Virus record (IMG/VR): IMGVR_UViG_2600254997_000025
Reading direction: 5' to 3' (one strand)
Source: a virus
Taxonomy: Duplodnaviria > Heunggongvirae > Uroviricota > Caudoviricetes
DNA length: 10,888 nucleotides
A model generated the notes under the pieces. It was not told where the DNA came from, did not search any database, and saw only the letters and a program-made list of their open reading frames with translations. Below, piece after piece: positions 1 to 10,888 of the stretch (its first letter is position 1; each line of letters opens with the position of its first letter). A program made the position numbers and the translations under genes.

Positions 1-228
1 GGAAACACCAAACACCTTTTCAACCAGTTTCAGGCCGTCACCGGCACCACACTGATTGCAGTACCAGGTGCCGCGCCCCTCCCTGTCATCAAAACGGAAG
101 CGGTCACTCCCGCTACAGACCGGACAGGGCTGATGACGGTTTTCCAGCACCTGAATCCCCAGCGCCGGGAGAATACGCGGCCAGTGGCCGAGCGCATGGC
201 TGACGGTGGCGGTTACGTTCATTTTCAT
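1..228 (-). CDS. P4 alpha-type primase, N-terminal zinc-ribbon portion (gene continues past the left edge of the window)
   Basis: Minus-strand ATG at 228-226 opens MKMNVTATVSHALGHWPRILPALGIQVLENRHQPCPVCSGSDRFRFDDREGRGTWYCNQCGAGDGLKLVEKVFGVS with no stop down to position 1. The CPxC...CNQC spacing is typical of the zinc-binding domain of P4 alpha-family primases. AAGGAG (revcomp of 238-243) lies 9 nt upstream. Absent from the ORF track because it is truncated by the window. Confidence 0.7.
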   Translation of the reverse strand, partial: MKMNVTATVSHALGHWPRILPALGIQVLENRHQPCPVCSGSDRFRFDDREGRGTWYCNQCGAGDGLKLVEKVFGVS

Positions 229-242
229 GGTGTTGTTCTCCT

Positions 243-563
243 TCAGTGCAGTACTGGCGCTTTTATGTGACGGGCACAGAGTTCATCCATCACAACCAGC
301 CCGAGAAAGGACAGCGACGGCGCGGCCTTCAGGGGGCCGGATTCCATTAAATCTTCCAGCAGGGCACAGGCTATCTGACGCCCTTTTTCCTCACCGTGCT
401 GGCGCAGATAAAAGCCTTCCAGCTCAGCGGCGATGGCCGCCTCCAGTGATTCAAGGGTGAGATGCGGGTAGCGGTGCTGACGTTCGCACACGGTCAGCCA
501 GGCACAGGCGACAGCGCGACGGTAAAGGGCAGCGCGTAAGACGGGCGGTAAGGGTGTTTTCAT
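243..563 (-). CDS. Small protein, 106 aa, immediately upstream of the primase gene (the position P4 cnr occupies, as recalled); function not recognised from sequence
   Basis: ORF in track. GGGAGG (revcomp of 571-576) sits 7 nt upstream of the ATG at 563. Its stop at 243-245 overlaps the primase RBS, giving a tight operon. Same strand as all neighbouring genes. Confidence 0.55.
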
Positions 564-698
564 TTGCTTTCCTCCCTGTGACAGATGACTGCATTCTGTG
601 CCGGTTGCATTAACTGATAAGGCATATCTGCGTCTCCTGAAGACGTGCGTATCCCTGCGCGAATACGCACATTTAATTTTTCGGGTGTCGTTTTTTAA

Positions 699-1154
699 TT
701 ACAGATAATTGCGGTAACTGTTATCCGGTGTGATTTCCGGGTCAGGCTCCGTGCGGGGAATTTCCCGCCATTCCCGCGCCACCGGTGCCGCCCGGCTGGC
801 CGGAACAGGGTCCTGCGGGTAAATATCCAGATATTTCACCCGCCATTTCTGTAATTCCGGGTCTCCGGCCATTTCTTTCAGTACCGCATGCCGGTTTACG
901 GGGCTGCGTTTAAACAGGTCAGGACGGTCACAGGTAAATTCCCGCAGAAAACGCCCCAGCGGGATGTCTGTGGTGCGCCCGTCAGCGAGGATACGCACAA
1001 GGATACTGAATTTACGGCGGTACGGGTTCCAGACAATGTCCGGGCAGCGGTACGGCATTTCCCACGGAATACCGTCTTCCAGAATGCCGACCACGGCCAC
1101 ATCGGGAAAACCGGCAGAACGGTAAATCTCACCGGGCTGGGGAAAATCAAACAT
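699..1154 (-). CDS. Hypothetical protein, 151 aa (same size and relative position as P4 orf151, recalled from memory)
   Basis: ORF in track. GGAG lies 9 nt upstream of the ATG at 1154, and the ATG overlaps the TGA (1149-1147) of the upstream frame. No motif recognised by eye. Confidence 0.5.
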   Translation of the reverse strand: MFDFPQPGEIYRSAGFPDVAVVGILEDGIPWEMPYRCPDIVWNPYRRKFSILVRILADGRTTDIPLGRFLREFTCDRPDLFKRSPVNRHAVLKEMAGDPELQKWRVKYLDIYPQDPVPASRAAPVAREWREIPRTEPDPEITPDNSYRNYL

Positions 1155-1434
1155 GCGTCCTGTCTCCCCGGTCTTTCTGCTGGGCGAGAAAATCGCGGCA
1201 CAGGCCTTTGGCTTTCAGCTCATTCAGCACAAAATCAATATCTTCATTCAGGTAGCTGAAAATATGCGGAATGTAGAGCTGATGCAGGCCGGAGAGTTCA
1301 CGGTGAATCAAATCACCCCCAACAAACTGGGATACGGCGCTGGCGCGGTTGAGCTTATGGTAAGCCTCAATGCTGAGGTGTTCACGGGCGTCATGACGCG
1401 CTGAGACGGTCTGAGGGGCTTTTTTATTACGCAC
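1147..1434 (-). CDS. Possible 95-aa protein with a GTG start (the position P4 epsilon occupies); uncertain
   Basis: Minus-strand frame is open from 1680 to 1147 but has no ATG. GTG at 1434-1432 is preceded by GGAGG at a 6-nt spacer and overlaps the stop of the 65-aa ORF (GTGCGTAA). Translation reads [95 protein letters not shown] competing plus-strand ORF 1153-1404 covers the same DNA. Confidence 0.3.
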
Positions 1435-1624
1435 GGGACCCCTCCACCACCGGCAGACGGGCAGCAAGGGAGAGCACATAGTCACGGACAAGGGAACGGC
1501 GGGCGCTGCGTTCATCACCGGCGACGGTGCGAAGCATACAGATACTGGGATGACGGTCTGCGCGACGGACAGCCGCAAACACAAAGACAAATTCAGGGTG
1601 TGAGGGGGTAAGGGTTGTAGCCAT
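1427..1624 (-). CDS. Possible small protein, 65 aa ([12 protein letters not shown]...VVEGSRA)
   Basis: Internal ATG of the 208-aa track ORF, preceded by a perfect AGGAGG (revcomp of 1633-1638) at an 8-nt spacer. That SD is itself part of the seqC-like repeat, so it may be coincidental. Confidence 0.3.
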
Positions 1625-1632
1625 GATGGCAG

Positions 1633-1676
1633 CCTCCTTGAAGTAACAGTTACAGCTACCACTAGAGTTCCTACGC
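1633..1676 (-). promoter_or_regulatory. seqC-like antisense target repeat downstream of the CI-like segment
   Basis: Plus-strand CCTTGAAGTAAC (1635-1646) and GTTCCTACGC (1667-1676) are identical to copies at 1859-1870 and 1876-1885. Also contains GCTACCAC complementary to the CI-like segment. Confidence 0.35.
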
Positions 1677-1680
1677 TCAT

Positions 1681-1740
1681 GGGTGGTAGCCCGGACGGGG
1701 GTAGGAATACCGGCCTTCAAGGAAACCGGCCAGCCCGAAG
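1681..1740 (-). ncRNA. Candidate P4 CI-RNA-like immunity RNA (seqB-like segment)
   Basis: On the transcribed minus strand this segment carries CCUUGAAGG, UUCCUAC and CUACCACC. These are complementary to CUUCAAGG and GUAGGAA in the two flanking repeats, and to GUGGUAG (revcomp of 1655-1662) in the downstream repeat only. It is GC-rich with internal GGCCGG/CCGG self-complementarity. Confidence 0.35.
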
Positions 1741-1856
1741 GCTGCCCCGCCCGGACCACCATTATCTGACAGAGGCTACGGTTTAAAAACCACAGCCAGA
1801 AAAACAGGTGTGCCGAAGCAACGACGTAAAAAAAAGACGCATGGCGCGTCATATGT

Positions 1857-1885
1857 CGCCTTGAAGTAACTCGGGTTCCTACGCC
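1857..1885 (-). promoter_or_regulatory. seqA-like antisense target repeat in the leader of the leftward operon
   Basis: Second copy of the CCTTGAAGTAAC...GTTCCTACGC pair, about 20-50 nt downstream of the predicted promoter on the minus strand. Confidence 0.35.
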
Positions 1886-1913
1886 CGGCTGCCGATTTTG
1901 CGGCAGCGGAAAA

Positions 1914-1943
1914 ACTATATCCGCAAATGCCGGAAAAAGGCAA
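1914..1943 (-). promoter_or_regulatory. Candidate sigma70 promoter for the leftward immunity/replication operon (PLE-like)
   Basis: Minus strand reads TTGCCT (revcomp of 1938-1943), an 18-nt spacer, then TATAGT (revcomp of 1914-1919). A 7-bp hairpin (GCTGCCG/CGGCAGC, 1888-1907) sits at the predicted start site. Confidence 0.35.
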
Positions 1944-1956
1944 GCCAGTGTATGGG

Positions 1957-2989
1957 TCCACCACATATTGCAATTTTTATTCTCTTTTAAAATATATTCC
2001 ACGGGCGTCATTAGTGCGAGCGCCTTGTGGGGTCTTTTGCTGTTATACAGCACCAGATATTCCGCCAGCTTCTGGTTAAATAGCGCCAGATCTTCAAAGA
2101 GTAAAATCTCATTAAATTCAATAAACTGCTCTCTTAACGTCCGGTTAAACGTTCACAGATAGCGTTTCATTTTTTGGCGTGTAGGGATAGGTCCAGAGGT
2201 TGTTTGATAGCGGCTTTCCTGCAGCGTTTTTGTCGAAGTTTCCCAGGAACTCTTTTCCGTTATCTGTGATTATCTGGCTGATACCGACCGGGAACAACCG
2301 GGCTGCGCGGCTGAAGAAGTGATTGACGATATCACTGTTGAGTGACGGCACAGCCAGCGCCAGCGCGTAATTGCTGCATTCGTCGATCATGGTGATGACA
2401 TAGCGACGCAGTTCGCCCATTCTGAGCTCAATGGCGTCCATCCCAATGAGCTCACCTGTCTTTACCGGGCGGTAGTGCTTTGGCCTGCGGGGTTTGGCAG
2501 ACCGCTTTTGACAAGCAGTGCCTTCCCCCGCGATCCCAGACGCACAGGTATCATCCGCATTTTATCATGTGCGGCAGCGATCATTCTGCCGATGGTGGAA
2601 ACACTCGGACAGGCCAGATAGCGCTGTTCGCACCAGGGCTTCAGGCGAACAAAAATCTGCTCTTTACCGAGGTTCGGCAGCTCTGTCCTGAGGCGTCGAA
2701 TCTCTTTCAGCACATCGGGATGCCAGTGTTTTTTTCGTCGCACCAGAGGTGCCTTACTGTGCGGGATTAGCCCCTCAGGTCCTTCCTTGTTCAGTAACTG
2801 ACGCCACCAGTAAAGCGTGCGGCAGGACACGCCAAAGGCTTCAGAAGCTGCAGAAATACCGTGTTTATCCCAGAAGTGCAGAGCCTTCATTCTCATTGTT
2901 GCTATATCAGCCATCACTGAAAGCCTCAACGCATAATCGGCCGTTTGGTAGTACTTAGGATAGCCAACCATCAGATGCTGCATTTGCAT
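1957..2989 (-). pseudogene. Degraded DDE transposase (IS481-like), split over three frames
   Basis: Track ORF 2462-2989 has an N-terminal HTH-like region (GISAASEAFGVSCRTLYWWRQLL). ORF 2145-2441 has an rve-type core with ITDNGKEF. The start of ORF 1427-2053 has the transposase C-terminal signature [18 protein letters not shown]. The pieces are in different frames with gaps. Confidence 0.5.
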
Positions 2990-3035
2990 AGTGCAATCTC
3001 CCCTTACTTATCCGGAGGCAATTGCAATATCTCTG
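1957..3035 (-). mobile_element. IS remnant of about 1.08 kb inserted between vis and the immunity region; boundaries approximate
   Basis: ATATTGCAATT at 1966-1976 is an inverted copy of AATTGCAATAT at 3020-3030, a candidate terminal inverted-repeat core. Only 11 bp is shared, so the ends are not precisely defined. Confidence 0.4.
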
Positions 3036-3082
3036 TGAACTTACACAGCCAGAAAAAGGGAGTTTTTGCAGAGCGGGCATCA

Positions 3083-3349
3083 TCATGCGTCGTACCCCCG
3101 TTTGCGTCCGGCAATGCGTCCGGCCATCCATGCGGTGACTTCAGAGTGCAGCCAGGCCACATTTTTACCGCCAAGACTCACCTGCGGCGGAAATTCCCCC
3201 TTACGGATGAGTTCGTAGATGGTCGAGCGTGACAGGCCGCACAGGTGCATCACTTCCGGAAGACGTAAAAAACGCTCCTGTGTGATGTCCGGCAGCGGCA
3301 TCAGTGGCGTCACAGGGGCGGGAGACGGGGAAGAAAAAACAGCTTGCAT
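3083..3349 (-). CDS. vis: Vis/AlpA-family HTH regulator (excision/transcription regulator), 88 aa
   Basis: ORF in track. ERFLRLPEVMHLCGLSRSTIYELIRKGEFPPQVSLGGKNVAWLHSEVTAWMAGR matches the AlpA/Vis helix-turn-helix pattern. GAGG lies 7 nt upstream of the ATG. The 88-aa length matches P4 Vis (orf88) as recalled. Confidence 0.75.
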   Translation of the reverse strand: MQAVFSSPSPAPVTPLMPLPDITQERFLRLPEVMHLCGLSRSTIYELIRKGEFPPQVSLGGKNVAWLHSEVTAWMAGRIAGRKRGYDA

Positions 3350-3451
3350 CGGGCTACCTCGTTAATGTCCATACAGCACCGGATAAGTCCGTCCGGCTTC
3401 GGGTAGCGCTTTATTTTGTGAATATTTTCAGCAGACGCAACAGGGGGGATT

Positions 3452-3469
3452 TGTTCCGGCAGCCTTACA
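3452..3469. promoter_or_regulatory. TGT-N12-ACA dyad, candidate Delta/Ogr activator site for a leftward late promoter upstream of vis
   Basis: TGTtccggcagccttACA seen directly. The dyad centre is about 110 nt from the vis ATG, compatible with a site centred near -55 and a leader of about 55 nt. Confidence 0.4.
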
Positions 3470-3495
3470 ATGCTTGTGTATTTTTTGTTCATCTC

Positions 3496-3525
3496 CACTT
3501 AAAGTCATTTAAAGCCACTTAAAGC
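3496..3525. repeat. Three tandem 10-bp direct repeats (CACTTAAAGT / CATTTAAAGC / CACTTAAAGC)
   Basis: Seen directly, with one-helical-turn periodicity, in the divergent intergenic region. Confidence 0.6.
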
Positions 3526-3628
3526 AATTCGTAATTTTTATAGTGAAATACAAATCGTTTTTTCTTATTCATTCCCGGCGAATTAATAAAAACAAACAGT
3601 AATAAACAGCACAAAAAGCCCATCAACG

Positions 3629-3733
3629 GGTGAACAGTGGTGAACAGACGGTGAACAGTCATTACTGCAATTGTTCACCCTTTAACTTACTGTATTACTT
3701 ATCTTTTTTCTTATGGTGAACAGAGGTGAACAG
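3629..3733. repeat. Iteron cluster: five direct GGTGAACAG copies plus one inverted TGTTCACC; resembles P4 alpha-binding iterons (crr/ori-like)
   Basis: GGTGAACAG at 3629-3637, 3639-3647, 3650-3658, 3715-3723 and 3725-3733, spaced 10-11 bp apart. Inverted TGTTCACC at 3672-3679. As recalled, P4 alpha binds TGTTCACC octamers in ori and crr. Confidence 0.55.
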
Positions 3734-3810
3734 TAAAATATAAAAAACAAACAGTAAGCCGGTTTTTCCTGCGACCTTTTCCTGGCTTGCCGGTCTGAGG
3801 ATGAGTCTCC

Positions 3811-3828
3811 TGTGTCAGGGCTGGCACA
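3811..3828. promoter_or_regulatory. TGT-N12-ACA dyad, candidate Delta/Ogr activator site of the sid late promoter (Psid-like)
   Basis: TGTgtcagggctggcACA seen directly. The dyad centre is about 80 nt upstream of the sid ATG at 3901. Confidence 0.45.
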
Positions 3829-3900
3829 TCTGCAATGCGTCGTGTTGTTGTCCGGTGTACGTCACAATTTTCTCAACCTGAAGTGACGAGGAGCCGGAAA

Positions 3901-4635
3901 ATGTCTGACAACACCATCCCTGAATATCTGCAACCCGCACTGGCACAACTGGAAAAGGCCAGAGCCGCCCACCTTGAGAACGCCCGCCTGATGGATGAGA
4001 CCGTCACGGCCATTGAACGGGCAGAGCAGGAAAAAAATGCGCTGACGCAGGCCGACGGAAACGACGCTGACGACTGGCGCACGGCCTTTCGTGCAGCCAG
4101 TGGTGTCCTGAGCGACGAGCTGAAACAGCGCCACATTGAGCGCGTGGCACGCCGGGAGCTGGTACAGGAATATGACAATCTGGCCGTGGTGCTGAATTTT
4201 GAACGCGAACGCCTGAAAGGGGCGTGTGACAGCACGGCCACCGCCTACCGGAAGGCACATCATCACCTTCTGAGTCTGTATGCAGAGCATGAGCTGGAAC
4301 ACGCCCTGAGTGAAACCTGTGAGGCGCTTGTCCGGGCAATGCATCTGAGCATTCTGGTACAGGAAAATCCGCTCGCCAACACCACCGGGCATCAGGGCTA
4401 CGTCGCACCCGATAAAGTTGTCATGCAGCAGGTGAAATCATCTTTGGAACAGAAAATAAAACAGATGCAAATCAGCCTCACCGGCGAGCCGGTTCTCCGG
4501 CTGACCGGACTGTCAGCGGCAACGCTCCCGCACATGGATTATGAGGTGGCAGGCACACCGGCACAGCGCAAGGTGTGGCAGGACAAAATAGACCAGCAGG
4601 GAGCAGAGCTTAAGGCCAGAGGACTGCTGTCATGA
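3901..4635 (+). CDS. sid: Sid-like capsid size-determination (external scaffold) protein, 244 aa
   Basis: Internal ATG at 3901 of track ORF 3835-4635, with GAGGAG (3888-3893) at a 7-nt spacer. Gives 244 aa (MSDNTIPEYLQPALAQLEKARAAHLENARLMDE...). First gene of a sid-delta-psu triplet, and its stop overlaps the delta ATG (ATGA at 4632-4635). The earlier ATG at 3835 lacks an RBS. Confidence 0.75.
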   Translation: MSDNTIPEYLQPALAQLEKARAAHLENARLMDETVTAIERAEQEKNALTQADGNDADDWRTAFRAASGVLSDELKQRHIERVARRELVQEYDNLAVVLNFERERLKGACDSTATAYRKAHHHLLSLYAEHELEHALSETCEALVRAMHLSILVQENPLANTTGHQGYVAPDKVVMQQVKSSLEQKIKQMQISLTGEPVLRLTGLSAATLPHMDYEVAGTPAQRKVWQDKIDQQGAELKARGLLS

Positions 4636-5132
4636 TTTACTGCCCGTCGTGTGGACATGTTGCTCACACCCGTCGCGCACATTTCATGGACGATGGCACC
4701 AAGATAATGATTGCACAGTGCCGGAATATTTATTGCTCTGCGACATTTGAAGCGAGTGAAAGCTTTTTCTCTGACTGTAAAGATTCAGGAATGGAATACA
4801 TTTCAGGCAAACAGAGATACCGCGATTCACTGACTTCTGCCTCCGGCAGTATGAAACGCCCGAAAAGAATGCTTGTTACCGGATATTGTTGTCGGAGATG
4901 TAAAGGCCTTGCACTGTCAAGAACATCGCGGCGTCTGTCTCAGGAAGTCACTGAACGTTTTTATGTGTGCACGGATCCGGGCTGTGGTCTGGTGTTTAAA
5001 ACGCTTCAGACCATCAACCGCTTCATTGTCCGCCCGGTCACGCCGGACGAACTGGCAGAAAGCCTGCATGAAAAACAGGAACTGCCGCCAGTACGGTTAA
5101 AAACACAATCATATTCGCTGCGTCTGGAATGA
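4632..5132 (+). CDS. delta: Delta-like late-gene transactivator with tandem Ogr-type zinc fingers, 166 aa
   Basis: Two Cys4 units: CPSCGHVAH...CRNIYC and CCRRCKG...CTDPGC. This is the duplicated Ogr-like architecture of P4 Delta, and the 166-aa length matches as recalled. Confidence 0.8.
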   Translation: MIYCPSCGHVAHTRRAHFMDDGTKIMIAQCRNIYCSATFEASESFFSDCKDSGMEYISGKQRYRDSLTSASGSMKRPKRMLVTGYCCRRCKGLALSRTSRRLSQEVTERFYVCTDPGCGLVFKTLQTINRFIVRPVTPDELAESLHEKQELPPVRLKTQSYSLRLE

Positions 5133-5205
5133 GGGCTGCCGGTTAACCCCGGCCGTCGCCGCACACCGTATTTTTATTCTTCAGCATGATGAGAAAGAGA
5201 TAACG

Positions 5206-5808
5206 ATGGAAAGCACAGCCTTACAGCAGGCCTTTGACACGTGTCAGAATAACAAAGCAGCATGGCTGCAACGCAAAAATGAGCTGGCTGCGGCCGAACA
5301 GGAATATCTGCGGCTTCTGTCAGGAGAAGGCAGAAACGTCAGTCGCCTTGACGAATTACGCAATATTATCGAAGTCAGAAAATGGCAGGTGAATCAGGCC
5401 GCCGGTCGTTATATTCGTTCGCATGAAGCCGTTCAGCACATCAGCATCCGCGACCGGCTGAATGATTTTATGCAGCAGCACGGCACAGCACTGGCGGCGG
5501 CACTGGCACCGGAGCTGATGGGCTACAGTGAGCTGACGGCCATTGCCCGAAACTGTGCCATACAGCGTGCCACAGATGCCCTGCGTGAAGCCCTCCTGTC
5601 CTGGCTTGCGAAGGGTGAAAAAATTAATTATTCCGCACAGGATAGCGACATTTTAACGACCATCGGATTCAGGCCTGACGCGGCTTCGGTGGATGACAGC
5701 CGTGAAAAATTCACCCCTGCGCAGAACATGATTTTTCGCGTAAAAGTGCGCAACTGGCATCACGTCAGTCTGTGTAAAATTCCCCGAAAATCCGCCTGTT
5801 TTTACTGA
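5206..5808 (+). CDS. psu: Psu-like polarity-suppression / capsid decoration protein, 200 aa
   Basis: Third gene of the late triplet, with AAAGAG upstream of the ATG. N-terminus MESTALQQAFDTCQNNKAAWLQRKNELAAAEQEY. The call rests on synteny plus recalled similarity. P4 Psu is recalled as about 190 aa, so the C-terminus may differ. Confidence 0.7.
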   Translation: MESTALQQAFDTCQNNKAAWLQRKNELAAAEQEYLRLLSGEGRNVSRLDELRNIIEVRKWQVNQAAGRYIRSHEAVQHISIRDRLNDFMQQHGTALAAALAPELMGYSELTAIARNCAIQRATDALREALLSWLAKGEKINYSAQDSDILTTIGFRPDAASVDDSREKFTPAQNMIFRVKVRNWHHVSLCKIPRKSACFY

Positions 5809-5810
5809 AA

Positions 5811-5841
5811 AAAGCCATGCATCGATAAGGTGCATGGCTTT
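5811..5841 (+). terminator. Hairpin immediately after psu stop, possible terminator of the late operon
   Basis: AGCCATGCA (5813-5821), 9-nt loop, TGCATGGCT (5831-5839): a perfect 9-bp stem flanked by an A run before and TT after. The T tract is short, so intrinsic termination is uncertain. Confidence 0.4.
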
Positions 5842-5916
5842 GCATGCGTTTCCCTGCCTCATTTTCTGCAGACCGCGCCATTCCCGGCGCGGTCTGAGCG
5901 TGTCAGTGCAACTGCA

Positions 5917-5944
5917 TTAAAACCGCCCCGCAAAGCGGGCGGGC
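5917..5944 (-). terminator. Candidate intrinsic terminator for the minus-strand cargo operon
   Basis: On the minus strand GCCCGCCCGC, loop TTT, GCGGGGCGG form a GC-rich stem (about 8 bp with one bulge) followed by TTTTAA. It lies about 35 nt downstream of the last cargo gene stop and is not followed by a T run on the plus strand. Confidence 0.4.
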
Positions 5945-5960
5945 GAGGCGGGGAGAGCAT
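5942..5960 (+). other. P2/P4-type cos site (cohesive-end 19-mer), uncleaved prophage form
   Basis: GGCGAGGCGGGGAGAGCAT matches 17 of 19 positions of the P2/P4 cohesive end GGCGAGGCGGGGAAAGCAC as recalled from memory. It sits directly after psu, as in P4. Confidence 0.6.
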
Positions 5961-5978
5961 TGCGCGCAGGTAAAAAAA

Positions 5979-6668
5979 TCATTTATTTTGTAATGCCGCA
6001 TCAAATCTGGTCTTGAGATCTTGGAATGGGATAACGAGTTTATCGATATAATCTTTATTATTATTTTGTAGAATTGCTTCAACAAAATCATTTAGAGGTG
6101 CATAGTTTTCTAATACTTTAGAATCGATAAAATCTTTATAGGACATACATTCAGCACCAATGCTAAGGCTTTCACCTATATACTTTTGTTCAAGAGATCT
6201 AATACAAGGAAAACCAATATCGTTCTCTCGTAGGGCTATAGAAATATTTTTGATTAATTCAGTTATTAACATTTCATCATTAGTTGGTGAAAATACAGAT
6301 GAATCTCTATTTTTCCTGAATTGATGTACCCAGCAAAAATATTGGCATAGATAGAATCTTGTACTATCAATATAATATTGATCCGACGATAGGTCATTGT
6401 GATCTTTAATATAACATAGCCTTCCTAAAAAACCATTTGCAGCACTAAGTAATGTTAACCCCCAACGTCCGATTTCAAGATCTCTTGCTTTTTTAAAATT
6501 ATAAGCACGTTCATCCTCTTTAATTCTCTGTTCACTTTCATATTTCAACTTATTTTTAAATGATTCTAACTCTCTTTTATCAATATGTTGTAAAAAAGCC
6601 TTACAAACAAATCCAATAATTGCAAATGAAATGCTTGATGACAAAATACCTTCCCAAAAGCTACTCAT
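5979..6668 (-). CDS. Small protein, 229 aa, with one predicted N-terminal transmembrane helix; third gene of the RT cassette (possible DRT1 partner / effector)
   Basis: ORF in track. Hydrophobic N-terminus FWEGILSSSISFAIIGFVCKAFL. The ATG (6668-6666) overlaps the TGA (6667-6665) of the nitrilase ORF, indicating translational coupling. AT-rich codon usage like the rest of the cassette. Confidence 0.65.
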   Translation of the reverse strand: MSSFWEGILSSSISFAIIGFVCKAFLQHIDKRELESFKNKLKYESEQRIKEDERAYNFKKARDLEIGRWGLTLLSAANGFLGRLCYIKDHNDLSSDQYYIDSTRFYLCQYFCWVHQFRKNRDSSVFSPTNDEMLITELIKNISIALRENDIGFPCIRSLEQKYIGESLSIGAECMSYKDFIDSKVLENYAPLNDFVEAILQNNNKDYIDKLVIPFQDLKTRFDAALQNK

Positions 6669-8512
6669 TTCTCACCTCGCTCTAATAGAGCATTATAGTC
6701 AAACCCTGGAGGATTGTGTTTAATAGTATCGGAGTTAATTCTGAATGAACGATATTGAGCCTCTCTCAATGCATATATATTTAAAGTAGTAGTTAGGATG
6801 CAATTGTTTTCCCCACCTTTTATATATATCTTATTTGAAATAGTGCTACTGGTCGGTTGTAGAACACAAGAACCGCCATAATGCGAAGTATTTGATTGAG
6901 CCACATAACAATGTAAATCCCGTGTCGCTGACTCAGTGATATGTTGATAATAATTTATATCTTGATTCCATACGCAAGCAAATAAAATATCCAACTGCGA
7001 ACGAAATAATGCTCTATGCTCGATATTAGCCAGTTCAAAACAGTTGTATGTAGAAAATGATACGTTTTTCCACTTAATCAAATGATACCGTTGTTTACTA
7101 GGTTTAGGAGAGGATATTTTTAACCTTAAAGAATTCAGCATCGTAATCTCACTAGGTGCGTAATGATTTTTCACTCGAAAAACTAACATACTGGATTTGT
7201 GTTTAAAGTTTGAAGTATAAGGCAGCATTTCAACCAAAATATTATATGCGCGTTCGTTAATAACCCAATGCTCTAATCCGAAAATCAAAGATATTTGTTT
7301 TCTCCTTGAATGTGCTGCCATAAAAGGTAACCACGACACAGGAATTGATAACTCAGGGAGTAGTAATATCTGCACATTTTCTTCAGTTGCCGAGTTGAGA
7401 ATACGATAAAGGTTTCTTTGCCGTTCATAACTTAAATTTGGAGACTGATCTTTTCTGCAAGCACTTTCAATATTACGACGTTCAACTCTCATATTTGCCA
7501 ACGCAACTTTTATTGTGTCATTACCACTTCTATCATCAATTCCTACCTTTATTTCAAGAGCTTTATTATCTTTTATCTTAGTAACAGAGCAATTTTTTAA
7601 GTGATGCTTATTTTCATGCGTAAACTTATGTAGTTTTCTTGTATGAAGAGCATCAATCAAATCGAAAAGCTGCTTTTCATCAGCATGAATATATCTAGGG
7701 GTTTTATTTAATTTATCATTATCAAGTGGAATACCATGCATCTTACTGTATAAATTCTCCTCAGTAAGATCTCCTTTATATTTAGTATAGTTAGCTAAAG
7801 GCCAAGACACTAGATTATGACGAATCAAATTACTGCTTCTAAATCTTTCAATTAGAACAGACATTCCATCGGACTGTTTAATTAAAGATTTCAAACCTTC
7901 CAAAGCTCTATTTTGTGGCTCTTTATCACCTAAAATGACATTTAAATCTAACAAAGCCAAATTCAAACAAAGAGAAATATCAATGTATTTCTGCATTCCA
8001 TTTTTAAGTTTTGGAGATATAACACTATCACCTTCCTTCCACTTCATTTTATTAATTGATTCTTTAATTTGTTTGTAAAAGGCGATTGAAAATCCATATT
8101 TTCTTGTAATTAATGTATACGATAGAACTTTCTCCCATAACCGACTGAACCTTAGAGAATTTTCACCTTTAAAAAACAGCGTTATTTGCTTTAAGGTATT
8201 CTCATTCGATGGAAGATTGCAAAGCCTATGAGCTAAGATATGTGATGATATATATTTTGATAATTCAGTTTCATTCTCTGCCAAACCTACAATACTTCTA
8301 AATTTATTTGCCGAACCATCAAGTAATATATCATAAGCAAATTTATCGAGATCGCTAGATATATGTTCTTCCGGTAAAAAACGAAATGCACTGCTTCTGT
8401 TCTCAATTTCTTGTTTGAAGACTTGTAAACCAGCCAAACTATGATCTTTATTGAAATAATGAAAAATCAATTTATCCTTTTGAATTGGTAATTCATGATA
8501 ACTCTCGGTCAA
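6665..8512 (-). CDS. Nitrilase (C-N hydrolase) domain protein; probably the C-terminal part of an RT-nitrilase fusion (annotated start is TTG)
   Basis: Nitrilase-superfamily catalytic triad context: Glu in ILLLPELS, Lys in LVFRVKNHYAPSE, Cys in TYNCFELANIEHR, plus HYGGSCVLQP. The frame is open 30 codons upstream of the TTG, back to the slippery heptamer in the RT gene. The first in-frame ATG is only at about codon 155. Confidence 0.8.
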   Translation of the reverse strand: MTESYHELPIQKDKLIFHYFNKDHSLAGLQVFKQEIENRSSAFRFLPEEHISSDLDKFAYDILLDGSANKFRSIVGLAENETELSKYISSHILAHRLCNLPSNENTLKQITLFFKGENSLRFSRLWEKVLSYTLITRKYGFSIAFYKQIKESINKMKWKEGDSVISPKLKNGMQKYIDISLCLNLALLDLNVILGDKEPQNRALEGLKSLIKQSDGMSVLIERFRSSNLIRHNLVSWPLANYTKYKGDLTEENLYSKMHGIPLDNDKLNKTPRYIHADEKQLFDLIDALHTRKLHKFTHENKHHLKNCSVTKIKDNKALEIKVGIDDRSGNDTIKVALANMRVERRNIESACRKDQSPNLSYERQRNLYRILNSATEENVQILLLPELSIPVSWLPFMAAHSRRKQISLIFGLEHWVINERAYNILVEMLPYTSNFKHKSSMLVFRVKNHYAPSEITMLNSLRLKISSPKPSKQRYHLIKWKNVSFSTYNCFELANIEHRALFRSQLDILFACVWNQDINYYQHITESATRDLHCYVAQSNTSHYGGSCVLQPTSSTISNKIYIKGGENNCILTTTLNIYALREAQYRSFRINSDTIKHNPPGFDYNALLERGEK

Positions 8513-8580
8513 CGTAAAGCCTTTCTCATCATTCGCTGCCTGTTTGATGAATCCATTAAGGGTTCGCTCTATGAATTTTA

Positions 8581-9540
8581 TTACTTCTTCACCTTTATCT
8601 TCTTTTTTAATGTCCGGGGATGAAAAACTAAAAGAATATCATCCACATAGCGACCGTAGTACGATGGATTAATTTTTGATTTAATATCTTTATCAAAACC
8701 CATTAAATACCAATTAGATAATATGGCAGAAGAAGTAAATCCAATTGGAATGCCTTTTGATGAAGGAGTTGAATGTGTCACACCAATATATGGAGATATT
8801 TTCTCTCTGTATTTTTGATGCATCAACCTCAATTTACTATTCAACAACATAGAAAGAGCTTTAATTTCTTCTAATTGTTCTTCGTCAATAATTCTATCAA
8901 TGGCATCAAAATCTATATCTATATTATAATAAAAACCCTTAAGATCCAGAGAAAGAATTGCAACATCATTTCGCTCTTTTTCTATAACTTCTATCGCTTT
9001 ATCGATACCACCATCTCGCCATTTATTATAATTATCAATGTATCTTTCAAAGATATTTTTTGAGGAGTTTTTTGGCGCATCGAAACTATTCTTAGAATAT
9101 TTTTTTATTACTTTTGATATTCTATTTCCATAAACCGAATCAGAAAACTTGTCATCTAGCATTGAACCAACAAAGATAGACCAGAGTGTTTCTATTAAAT
9201 ATATTTCAATAGGAGCAACGATCAAATAATTTACAGCACCTACTTTGTATTCATCTGATGTCTTATTATTACTTAAAAAAAGAGCTCCGCTCGTTTGCTC
9301 AATATCCAAATGGCTATCAATTATTTTTGGTAATAATTCAACATCAATTTTATTTAGCCACTCATTAAAGTTAATGTCATTATTATTTTCAAAAAAATCA
9401 ACCACTTTTTCTATTTTTTCGTCATAGAGAGAATCTTCAAATTGAGCGATTTCTTCCTTTAGGAAAAAATTTAAGTTTTCGTAGTAAGCATATGACTTAA
9501 GACAATTATATGCACTAACAACTATATCTTTTGTAATCAT
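8581..9540 (-). CDS. Reverse transcriptase (UG/Abi-type, defence-associated), 319 aa in this frame
   Basis: RT palm motifs: LSLDLKGFYYNIDIDF, GIPIGFTSSAILSNWYLMGFD (the GxPQG..S..L.N.YL-type motif) and YYGRYVDDILLVF (the YxDD catalytic motif). The ORF ends 6 codons after an A_AAA_AAG heptamer. Confidence 0.85.
   Translation of the reverse strand: MITKDIVVSAYNCLKSYAYYENLNFFLKEEIAQFEDSLYDEKIEKVVDFFENNNDINFNEWLNKIDVELLPKIIDSHLDIEQTSGALFLSNNKTSDEYKVGAVNYLIVAPIEIYLIETLWSIFVGSMLDDKFSDSVYGNRISKVIKKYSKNSFDAPKNSSKNIFERYIDNYNKWRDGGIDKAIEVIEKERNDVAILSLDLKGFYYNIDIDFDAIDRIIDEEQLEEIKALSMLLNSKLRLMHQKYREKISPYIGVTHSTPSSKGIPIGFTSSAILSNWYLMGFDKDIKSKINPSYYGRYVDDILLVFHPRTLKKKIKVKK
8602..8608 (-). other. A_AAA_AAG slippery heptamer at the RT/nitrilase frame junction
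   Basis: On the minus strand ACA TTA AAA AAG AAG reads A_AAA_AAG in the RT zero frame. A -1 shift here continues GAA GAT AAA GGT ... with no stop into the nitrilase ORF, exactly 30 codons to the TTG at 8512. Confidence 0.5.
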
Positions 9541-9631
9541 AACGCATCATTCCGTGTATAAGTCTGTTATAGATGAAAGTAAAACTGAAATTGATTAATA
9601 CCTAACAAAAACATACAGAAAAAATCAATTA

Positions 9632-10888
9632 TTAATATTTTTTTGCAAAATCAAATGGTGTTACGAAAGTCTCACGATTTGCTGATAGGAAATCCGCCCA
9701 CCATTGCATCATCAATCGACGTTCGTCCAAATGCTCTGAAGTATGGATATAAGCTGCACGAACATTATTGCGCTCCGAGTGGCTTAACTGACGTTCTATC
9801 GCATCATCACTCCAAAGCCCCGACTCCCCCAAAGCACCACCCGCCATTGTTCTAAAACCATGCCCACATACTTCCGTTTGTGTGTCGTAGCCCATAGTCC
9901 TGAGCGCATTATTAACTGTGTTTTCGCTCATAACTTTATTGGGATCATGATCACCGGGAAACAGTCTAGGATTATCTCCACTAAGCTTCTTCAACTCATC
10001 CAGCAAAGCTAGAGCCTGAGTGCTCAATGGAACAATATGTTCCTCTTTCATCTTCATCCCACGATAGGAGTAACGCACACCTTCGATTTCTTCACGCCGC
10101 GCCGGTATCCGCCAGCAGGCGTTATCAAAATCAAACTCATCCCATCGGGCAAATCGCATCTCACTAGAGCGAACGAAGGTAAGTAGAGATAACTCGACTG
10201 CAATACGCGTCATTTTGCGGCCACGATATGCCGCAAGGCGTGCCAGAAACTCAGGGAAACGGCTGGAAGGTAGAGCTGGATAGTGTCGTGCTTTAGTTGT
10301 CGATAACGCACCAGCCATATCGCTAGCCGGGTTCGAGTCGATATAATCGTTCTGTACGGCATACCGCATAATGGCCGTGACGCGCTGTTGCAGGCGCTGA
10401 GCGACGTCGTGTTTACCACTGACATCAACTTTTTTAATCGGGGCTAATAGGTGGCTAGTTTTGAGCTGGCGAATGTCGGACGAACCGATATGAGGGAAGA
10501 TATAAAGCTCAAGATAGCGAAGAACACGCGATCGATGGTCTTCACTCCAGCGCTTGTTACTGGCATGCCATTCGCGAGCAATGGTTTCGAAGGTATATAC
10601 CCCCGAATTCTCGGCCTGAGCTTCTTTCTGTTCGGCTTTTGGGTCAATGCCCTGCACTAACAGCTTTTTAGCTTCGTCGCGCTTTGCTCTTGCCTGAGCA
10701 AGCGTCACTGTAGGCCAAACACCAAAAGCGAGGCGATCCTCTTTTTTGTCAGAGGGGCGTCGGTATTTCATGCGCCAGTATTTAGAACCCTTGGCCGAAA
10801 CCTCGAGATACAAACCGCCGCCATCGGCCATTTTGTATGTTTTGTCTTTTGGCTTTGCGGTCTCGACCTGTCTGGCGTTGAGCTTCAT
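9632..10888 (-). CDS. int: P4-type tyrosine integrase (site-specific recombinase), 418 aa
   Basis: ORF in track. N-terminus MKLNARQVETAKPKDKTYKMADGGGLYLEV is typical of P4-family integrase arm-binding domains. C-terminal catalytic region with R (TFVRSSE), HGFR and the Tyr context VRAAYIHTSEH. The ATG sits at the last 3 bases of the window. Confidence 0.9.
   Translation of the reverse strand: MKLNARQVETAKPKDKTYKMADGGGLYLEVSAKGSKYWRMKYRRPSDKKEDRLAFGVWPTVTLAQARAKRDEAKKLLVQGIDPKAEQKEAQAENSGVYTFETIAREWHASNKRWSEDHRSRVLRYLELYIFPHIGSSDIRQLKTSHLLAPIKKVDVSGKHDVAQRLQQRVTAIMRYAVQNDYIDSNPASDMAGALSTTKARHYPALPSSRFPEFLARLAAYRGRKMTRIAVELSLLTFVRSSEMRFARWDEFDFDNACWRIPARREEIEGVRYSYRGMKMKEEHIVPLSTQALALLDELKKLSGDNPRLFPGDHDPNKVMSENTVNNALRTMGYDTQTEVCGHGFRTMAGGALGESGLWSDDAIERQLSHSERNNVRAAYIHTSEHLDERRLMMQWWADFLSANRETFVTPFDFAKKY

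What the first reader, a model, noticed from the sequence alone, without database searches (positions are those of the whole stretch)
8512..8608. RT and nitrilase ORFs are joined by a -1 frame change exactly at an A_AAA_AAG slippery heptamer
The RT ORF ends 6 codons after the heptamer A_AAA_AAG (8608-8602, minus strand), the same heptamer used for -1 frameshifting in E. coli dnaX and IS3/IS911-type transposases. The -1 frame is open from the heptamer through the whole nitrilase ORF, which otherwise has only a TTG start and no ATG for about 155 codons. A -1 slip would give a fusion of about 958 aa. Three readings: programmed frameshifting that sets an RT to RT-nitrilase ratio; loss of one A from an ancestral A7 tract (pseudogenised or phase-variable gene); or a homopolymer sequencing error. 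No obvious upstream SD-like or downstream stem-loop stimulator was seen, so the readings are about equally weighted.
Basis: seen in the sequence. Interest (0 to 1): 0.8.

Follow-up and report, generated by a model that had tools for sequence, protein, structure and literature searches.

The report
One-base homopolymer gap, not programmed frameshift
A known anti-phage gene (a reverse transcriptase fused to a nitrilase) looks split here only because one T is missing from a run of six Ts, most likely a sequencing error, and the nearby "slippery" A-run is a coincidence, not a recoding signal.

Summary
The sequence facts are correct. A_AAA_AAG sits in the 0 frame at 8608-8602 (minus strand), the stop follows six codons later, the -1 frame is open to 6665, and the fusion would be 958 aa.

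The frame does not break at the heptamer. All 33 E. coli complete genomes with this gene, and 2 metagenome contigs, carry the same A6 tract. They have T6 where the window has T5 (8627-8623), 15 nt upstream. With T6 the gene is one 958-aa ORF, and that exact protein occurs on 201 contigs. In intact alleles the A-run reads AAA AAA in frame, so it is not a 0-frame heptamer. Relatives at 78-88% identity lack the A-run, and no stimulator is present.

The gene is the known UG5-large RT-nitrilase + TM defence system of the P4-like satellite hotspot, not UG1/DRT1.

The source draft (ALNX01000056.1, E. coli E851/71) has other private one-base indels: psu (0 of 1,056 genomes share it), holC (0 of 5,417) and an IS481 copy. 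A homopolymer sequencing error is therefore most likely (about 0.7). A genuine inactivating mutation is second (about 0.25). Evolved programmed frameshifting is effectively excluded.

The parts
6665..9540 (-). UG5-large RT-nitrilase gene. In this record it is split into two reading frames. With one T restored it is one 958-aa ORF.
   Evidence: PADLOC RT_UG5-nitrilase profile (958 positions): ORF1 matches positions 1-316 and the downstream frame matches 312-958. Over the 3-kb comparison (6600-9600) that contains this gene, the window differs from the intact gene of NZ_CP062910.1 (WP_000628823.1) by 1 indel and 4 substitutions.
8623..8627 (-). T5 run, the real site of the frame break. Relatives have T6 here (GTT TTT TCA TCC CCG).
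   Evidence: All 33 complete genomes span 64 nt for a 63-nt query across this site, meaning one gap each. Two metagenome contigs have T6. All seven loci read directly have T6 and A6.
8602..8608 (-). A_AAA_AAG heptamer. It is in the 0 frame only because of the upstream one-base deficit. In intact alleles the same bases read AAA AAA G.
   Evidence: Not conserved in relatives at 78-88% identity.
8581..8622 (-). Out-of-frame tail of ORF1 (HPRTLKKKIKVKK, then TAA at 8583-8581). It replaces the native SSPDIKKEDKGEEV...
   Evidence: The proline of the native motif is invariant in the 31 aligned homologues.
8623..9042 (-). Part of the RT palm domain encoded in ORF1, including the YVDD catalytic motif just before the break.
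   Evidence: Pfam RVT_1 matches residues 167-306 of ORF1, profile positions 54-160 of 205, so the match is cut off at the T run.
6698..7522 (-). C-terminal C-N hydrolase (nitrilase-like) domain.
   Evidence: PADLOC RTasNitrilase, E 2e-34, on residues 363-637 of the downstream frame. Pfam PF00795 is recorded for homologues P0026, P0027 and P0031.
5979..6668 (-). Partner transmembrane effector gene. Its start overlaps the RT-nitrilase stop (ATGA).
   Evidence: PADLOC RTasTM, E 5e-164, full length 229/229. There is an N-terminal hydrophobic segment at about residues 4-26, and the start/stop overlap is visible in the sequence.
9632..10888 (-). P4-like satellite integrase, one edge of the defence hotspot.
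   Evidence: Annotated tyrosine recombinase next to tRNA-Leu in relatives. Pfam Phage_integrase.
5206..5808 (+). psu, the other edge of the hotspot. It carries its own private T5-for-T6 deficit near 5731.
   Evidence: PHROG Psu match. Indel seen. None of 1,056 genomes shares it.

Best explanation
The window carries the known UG5-large RT-nitrilase + TM anti-phage system in the psu-int hotspot of a P4-like satellite integrated at tRNA-Leu. In nature the RT-nitrilase is one 958-aa protein. In this record one T is missing from a T6 run (T5 at 8627-8623), right after the YVDD catalytic motif. Translation therefore runs out of frame for 13 codons and stops. The A_AAA_AAG heptamer lies inside that out-of-frame stretch by coincidence and is not the junction. 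The missing base is most likely a homopolymer under-call in an error-prone draft assembly (ALNX01000056.1, E. coli E851/71). If so, the real strain encodes an intact gene and no recoding is involved.

Shown: the position of the break, the intact state of relatives, the non-conservation of the heptamer, and the other private indels in this contig. Inferred: that this particular indel is an artefact and not a true mutation.
For: 1. Break position. The window and the intact allele have the identical A6 tract and differ by T5 versus T6. 33 of 33 complete genomes and 2 of 2 metagenome contigs have the longer run.
2. Intact form is the norm. The exact 958-aa protein is on 201 contigs. There are 370 homologues, and the listed ones are, apart from about ten shorter or partial forms, 955-1060 aa and cover 98-100% of the query. 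The alignment of 31 homologues is continuous across the site.
3. Assembly quality. The window is positions 1-10888 of ALNX01000056.1. In 19.5 kb of that contig I found:
   - psu T5 for T6, shared by 0 of 1,056 genomes;
   - two indels 37 nt apart in the core gene holC, shared by 0 of 5,417 genomes;
   - seven small indel events (six single-base, one 2-nt), with almost no substitutions, in a 1.1-kb IS481 copy;
   - run-length differences at 1828 and 3741.
   Six of the 111 runs of 5 or more are discordant. The RT gene has 24 such runs, so about one artefactual indel is expected there.
4. The repaired protein carrying the window's own substitutions is not recorded elsewhere, and the window's exact 319-aa product is on this contig only.
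Against: - A 319-aa product with the same out-of-frame tail, but on the common K73 backbone (P0137), exists on one other NCBI contig. The T5 state has therefore been seen twice. That could mean a real, inherited or recurrent mutation, or a recurrent under-call. I could not retrieve that contig.
- Real disruptions of this gene are common. 10 of 33 complete genomes carry IS insertions or other homopolymer frameshifts, and three assemblies share one of them.
- The window allele has 3 non-synonymous and 1 synonymous private substitutions, which is compatible with relaxed constraint.
- The sequencing platform and the reads of this assembly were not available.
Confidence: 0.7

Rival explanations
1. 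The T6-to-T5 deletion is genuine, and the RT-nitrilase is a recently inactivated pseudogene (loss of a costly defence gene). The 319-aa product lacks everything after RT motif C, and the nitrilase part is not translated to any useful extent.
For: - The gene is disrupted in 10 of 33 complete genomes: IS1, ISEc60 and IS3 insertions, A7-to-A6 in L002, and A6-to-A7 shared by three assemblies.
- The same T5-type product is present in a second assembly (P0137).
- The private substitutions are 3 non-synonymous to 1 synonymous.
Against: The same contig has private one-base indels in psu, holC and an IS copy that no other genome shares. About one artefactual indel is expected in this gene's 24 homopolymer runs, so nothing is left that needs a real mutation to explain it. 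No complete genome has T5.
Confidence: 0.25
2. Evolved programmed -1 ribosomal frameshifting at A_AAA_AAG sets a ratio of a short RT to a full RT-nitrilase.
For: The heptamer is in the 0 frame in this record, six codons before the stop. A_AAA_AAG is among the most slip-prone motifs in E. coli (PMC4066793). Its presence after this particular indel has a chance probability of only about 1-4%.
Against: - The two-ORF arrangement is absent from all 33 complete genomes, both metagenome contigs and the roughly 100 full-length homologues among those listed.
- In intact alleles the A-run is in a different phase, and it is missing at 78-88% identity.
- Homology changes frame at the T run, not at the heptamer.
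- There is no upstream SD-like element and no downstream structure (z = 0.16).
- The short product would end inside the RT palm, which is not a domain boundary. Natural UG5-small splits lie near residue 610-630.
Confidence: 0.02
3. Phase variation or transcriptional slippage at the T6/T5 or A6 runs switches the defence gene on and off.
For: All frameshifts seen in this gene across strains lie in homopolymer runs.
Against: Runs of 5-8 bases are short for efficient slippage. The affected runs differ from strain to strain, with no single variable tract. 33 of 33 complete genomes have T6 here. The runs themselves are not conserved in relatives.
Confidence: 0.03

Closest known systems
RT-nitrilase + 1TM system (UG5-large) of the E. 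coli P4-like satellite hotspot, validated as anti-phage by Rousset et al. 2022 (PMC9122126) and discussed in Mestre et al. 2022 (PMC9226505)
   Same: [quoted passage not shown]
- PADLOC profiles of exactly 958 and 229 positions match end to end.
- At least 99.6% nucleotide identity to RefSeq alleles.
   Different: In this record the RT-nitrilase is split by a one-base deficit in a T6 run. It also has three private amino-acid changes: K73I, V907I and H913N. I did not verify that the experimentally tested allele is sequence-identical to this one.
DRT11, the UG5-large RT-nitrilase of Sinorhizobium meliloti (PMC13436386)
   Same: Same UG5-large family. [quoted passage not shown]
   Different: DRT11 lacks the TM partner and sits on a megaplasmid. 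It is a distant sequence.
DRT type 1 (UG1 RT-nitrilase)
   Same: RT plus C-terminal C-N hydrolase. It is sometimes accompanied by a TM protein.
   Different: Different RT clade and size (1200-1300 aa). The Drt1a profiles score only 1e-15 and 6e-10, against 1e-197 and 0 for UG5.
dnaX and IS3/IS911 programmed -1 frameshift sites
   Same: The heptamer A_AAA_AAG in the 0 frame.
   Different: Those sites are conserved and flanked by an upstream SD-like element and/or a downstream stem-loop or pseudoknot. Here there is no conservation, no stimulator, and the homology break is elsewhere.
Adventitious rescue of one-base deletions at A-rich slippery sites (pDEST17 C_AAA_AAA; Belfield et al. 2007, PMC1851650)
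   Same: A one-base deletion upstream of a lysine-codon slippery run could be partly corrected by -1 slippage. In that vector, 25-60% correction was reported.
   Different: That was a high-expression vector context. Reporter data without stimulators give only 2-10 times a 0.055% background. Here the corrected product would also carry HPRTL in place of SSPDI next to the catalytic motif.

Membership tests
UG5-large RT-nitrilase + TM defence system | RT domain of the UG5 clade with a YxDD catalytic motif | tested here: met
   The best PADLOC hit for both ORFs is RT_UG5-nitrilase (1e-197 and 0). Pfam RVT_1 scores 1.9e-10. YVDD is present.
UG5-large RT-nitrilase + TM defence system | C-N hydrolase (nitrilase-like) domain fused at the C-terminus | tested here: met
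   RTasNitrilase profile, E 2e-34, on residues 363-637 of the downstream frame. Pfam-A gave no hit for the window's own sequence, but PF00795 is recorded for three homologues.
UG5-large RT-nitrilase + TM defence system | RT and nitrilase in one continuous polypeptide of about 950-1050 aa | tested here: not met
   Not met in the record as given: it has ORFs of 319 and 615 aa. Met once one T is restored, giving 958 aa with no stop, and met in 201 contigs carrying the identical relative. The failure is a lesion or an error, not a different architecture.
UG5-large RT-nitrilase + TM defence system | Downstream transmembrane partner gene | tested here: met
   RTasTM, E 5e-164, 229/229 positions. N-terminal hydrophobic segment and ATGA overlap with the RT-nitrilase stop.
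UG5-large RT-nitrilase + TM defence system | Anti-phage activity | not testable with these tools
   Reported for the E. coli P4-hotspot system (PMC9122126) and for DRT11. Not tested for this allele.
Programmed -1 ribosomal frameshift site (dnaX/IS3 type) | X_XXY_YYZ heptamer in the 0 frame within the overlap of two ORFs | tested here: met
   A_AAA_AAG at 8608-8602 lies in the ORF1 frame and inside the 8638-8584 overlap.
Programmed -1 ribosomal frameshift site (dnaX/IS3 type) | Heptamer and two-frame arrangement conserved among homologues | tested here: not met
   33 of 33 complete genomes and 2 metagenome contigs have one continuous frame. The A-run is absent at 78-88% identity. The 31 aligned homologues are continuous.
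Programmed -1 ribosomal frameshift site (dnaX/IS3 type) | Stimulatory element: an upstream SD-like sequence and/or a downstream stem-loop or pseudoknot | tested here: not met
   The 72 nt downstream fold no better than shuffles (-6.7 kcal/mol, z = 0.16). The 32 nt upstream hold no GGAG/AGGA-type motif.
Programmed -1 ribosomal frameshift site (dnaX/IS3 type) | Protein homology changes frame at the heptamer | tested here: not met
   Homology changes frame at the T run, 15-19 nt upstream. The five residues between the T run and the heptamer match relatives only in the downstream frame.
Programmed -1 ribosomal frameshift site (dnaX/IS3 type) | Trans-frame protein detected | not testable with these tools
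   Needs a western blot, mass spectrometry or a reporter assay.
DRT type 1 (UG1) | RT of the UG1 clade, 1200-1300 aa | tested here: not met
   Drt1a profiles score far below UG5. The length is 958 aa, against 1200-1300 for UG1.

The most novel reading that the evidence does not exclude
The T5 allele is real. It is tolerated, or recurs (it was seen on two backbones), because the A_AAA_AAG heptamer 15 nt downstream lets a small fraction of ribosomes slip back into the native frame. That would yield a low dose of full-length RT-nitrilase with SSPDI replaced by HPRTL: a 'saviour' slippage that turns a toxic defence gene down but not off.
Probability: 0.04. Interest if true: 0.4.

Novelty: not a real feature. 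Interest (0 to 1): 0.08.

Why it matters
This matters mainly as a caution. An in-frame slippery heptamer next to an ORF junction is weak evidence for recoding in AT-rich genes. Here 12% of random one-base deletions would be followed by such a heptamer. Comparison with near-identical alleles placed the real lesion 15 nt away, in another homopolymer.

For annotation, the locus should be read as the known UG5-large RT-nitrilase + TM system of a P4-like satellite, with a probable homopolymer error. The same draft contig should be treated as indel-prone, since psu, holC and an IS copy are also affected.

A side observation could be followed up separately: this defence gene is disrupted in about a third of the complete genomes that carry it.

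Tried and rejected
- Plasmid collection: no match.
- Viral contigs with the junction pattern: no match.
- GTDB species-representative genomes: no relative by protein and no match by junction pattern.
The second T5 assembly therefore could not be inspected.
- Exact look-up of the repaired 958-aa protein carrying the window's own substitutions: not in the collection.
- Literature search for the sequencing platform of E851/71 (ALNX00000000): only the strain name was found.
- 'Loss of an A from an ancestral A7': rejected, because intact alleles have A6.
- The 323-aa cluster mate P0122 as a second frameshift near the site: rejected, because it is the product of an IS3 insertion after GGTGAAG.
- UG1/DRT1 membership: rejected.
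- The split as a natural UG5-small-like arrangement: rejected, because that split lies near residue 610-630, not inside the RT palm.
- My first whole-window alignment was unusable because terminal gaps flooded the output. It was redone.
Full report
**1. The observation**

On the minus strand the 319-aa RT ORF (9540..8581) ends ...GTT TTT CAT CCC CGG ACA TTA AAA AAG AAG ATA AAG GTG AAG AAG TAA.
- A_AAA_AAG is therefore at 8608-8602 in the 0 frame, six codons before the stop.
- The -1 frame is open to 6665.
- The listed ORF in that frame starts at TTG 8512, and its first ATG is 155 codons later.
- A slip at the heptamer would give 958 aa.

What is not as written is 'exactly at'. The downstream frame is already open from 8638, ten codons upstream of the heptamer.

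**2. What the gene is**

- Both ORFs match the PADLOC profile RT_UG5-nitrilase, which has 958 positions. ORF1 covers positions 1-316 and the downstream frame covers 312-958. E-values are 1e-197 and 0. The Drt1a (UG1) profiles reach only 1e-15 and 6e-10.
- The next gene (5979..6668) is the RT-associated TM protein (E 5e-164, 229/229 positions). Its start overlaps the RT-nitrilase stop, and it has an N-terminal hydrophobic segment.
- In near-identical E. coli genomes the locus lies between the integrase and psu of a P4-like satellite at tRNA-Leu.
- This is the 'RT-nitrilase + 1TM' UG5 system that Rousset et al. validated in the P4 hotspot (PMC9122126). Mestre et al. call it UG5-large (PMC9226505).

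**3. Where the frame really breaks**

- 33 E. coli complete genomes carry the gene at 99.6% identity or more. Most span 3002 nt for the 3001-nt query.
- In NZ_CP062910.1 the gene is one 2877-nt CDS encoding 958 aa (WP_000628823.1).
- The junction there reads GTT TTT TCA TCC CCG GAC ATT AAA AAA GAA GAT. The A6 tract is identical to the window's. The T run is T6 where the window has T5 at 8627-8623.
- Over 3 kb the window differs from that allele by this one indel and four substitutions.
- A 63-nt probe across the site finds 33 of 33 genomes with exactly one gap.
- All seven loci read directly, including two metagenome contigs, have T6 and A6.
- Restoring one T gives a 958-aa ORF that differs from the common protein at K73I, V907I and H913N.
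- Homology to relatives follows ORF1 through ...YVDDILLVF, then the other frame from SSPDIKKEDKG. The Pfam RVT_1 match stops at residue 306, which is the T run.

In intact alleles the A-run is read AAA AAA in frame. It is a 0-frame A_AAA_AAG heptamer only in the shifted reading that the missing T creates.

**4. Is it a recoding signal?**

- 370 homologues were found. About 100 of the 120 best listed are 955-1060 aa and cover 98-100% of the query. About ten are shorter or partial forms.
- 31 of them aligned without a break across the site, with an invariant proline three residues after the T-run position.
- Relatives at 88, 80 and 78% identity read GAA AAA GAA, GAA AAA GAA and GAA ATA GAA at the heptamer position.
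- The 72 nt downstream fold no better than shuffled sequence (z = 0.16). The 32 nt upstream have no SD-like motif.
- The gene is 31% GC and carries 15 in-frame X_XXY_YYZ heptamers in its intact frame.
- A random one-base deletion is followed by some in-frame heptamer before the new stop in 12% of cases, and by A_AAA_AAG in 0.8%.

The coincidence is mild and was noticed after the fact. Evolved programmed frameshifting is therefore excluded for practical purposes.

**5. Error or real mutation?**

The window is positions 1-10888 of ALNX01000056.1, from assembly GCA_000754045.1. That accession series belongs to E. coli E851/71 (PMC3897749).

Compared with near-identical references, this contig shows an excess of private one-base indels:
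- psu has T5 for T6 near 5731, giving a 200-aa Psu where 190 aa is expected. None of 1,056 genomes shares it.
- The core gene holC has two indels 37 nt apart. None of 5,417 genomes shares them.
- The IS481-family copy at 1949-3046 has seven small indel events (six single-base, one 2-nt) and almost no substitutions relative to intact copies. Its transposase is split into three ORFs.
- Run lengths differ at 1828 and 3741.
- Six of 111 runs of 5 or more are discordant. The RT gene alone has 24 such runs, so about one artefactual indel is expected in it.

This pattern of many indels, few substitutions, and homopolymers hit even in core genes is the signature of homopolymer miscalling.

Three results point the other way:
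- The same T5-type 319-aa product on the common K73 backbone (P0137) exists on one other NCBI contig. I could not inspect that contig.
- Genuine disruptions of this gene are frequent. 10 of 33 complete genomes have IS1, ISEc60 or IS3 insertions or other homopolymer frameshifts, and one frameshift is shared by three assemblies.
- The window's private substitutions are 3 non-synonymous to 1 synonymous.

I put the artefact at about 0.7 and a real inactivating mutation at about 0.25.

**6. Residual novel reading**

If T5 is real, the heptamer could still let some ribosomes return to the native frame. The literature gives a wide range:
- Without stimulators, E. coli heptamers give only 2-10 times a 0.055% background in reporters. 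A_AAA_AAG is among the best motifs (PMC4066793).
- In contrast, 25-60% rescue of one-base deletions was seen at C_AAA_AAA in an expression vector (PMC1851650).

The rescued protein would carry HPRTL in place of SSPDI next to the catalytic YVDD and would displace an invariant proline. I give this reading about 4%.

**7. Verdict**

The locus is a known defence system. The apparent RT/nitrilase split is a one-base deficit in a T6 run, most probably a sequencing error. The slippery heptamer is incidental.

Noticed in passing
window 5206-5808 (+), indel near 5731: psu has T5 where relatives have T6, which changes the C-terminus (200 aa where 190 is expected). None of 1,056 E. coli complete genomes with this segment shares the shorter run.
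   Followed up: yes
window 1949-3046: An IS481-family element, 1098 bp, with a 6-bp target duplication AGCCAG, is inserted in the P4-like element. It is absent from the closest relatives. Its transposase is split into three ORFs by seven small indel events, with almost no substitutions relative to intact copies.
   Followed up: partly
L013 1107 and 1144 (contig ALNX01000056.1 positions 18434 and 18397, outside the window): The core gene holC carries a one-base insertion and a one-base deletion 37 nt apart, and the gene is called as only 68 aa. None of 5,417 E. coli complete genomes shares this, which points to poor indel accuracy in the assembly.
   Followed up: yes
related loci L002, L003, L015, L016 and hits H13, H14, H24, H28-H33: The RT-nitrilase gene is disrupted in 10 of the 33 complete genomes that carry it. 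The causes are IS1, ISEc60 and IS3 insertions and frameshifts in other homopolymer runs. One A6-to-A7 allele is shared by three assemblies. This may reflect recurrent loss of a costly defence gene.
   Followed up: partly
protein P0137 (not in the window): A 319-aa product with the same out-of-frame tail (VFHPRTLKKKIKVKK), but K73 in place of I73, is recorded on one other NCBI contig of 187 kb. The T5 state has therefore been seen in a second assembly. That contig could not be fetched.
   Followed up: partly
window 1828 and 3741: Two more homopolymer length differences from the closest relative: A8 versus A7, and A6 versus A7. I did not check whether they are private to this assembly.
   Followed up: no
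window 6665-6668 (-): The RT-nitrilase stop and the TM gene start overlap (ATGA), which suggests translational coupling. A premature stop in the RT gene could therefore also lower TM expression.
   Followed up: no
window 9323, 6823, 6805 (and 7421, synonymous): The window's allele has three private amino-acid changes (K73I, V907I, H913N) against one synonymous change, relative to the protein found on 201 contigs.
   Followed up: partly
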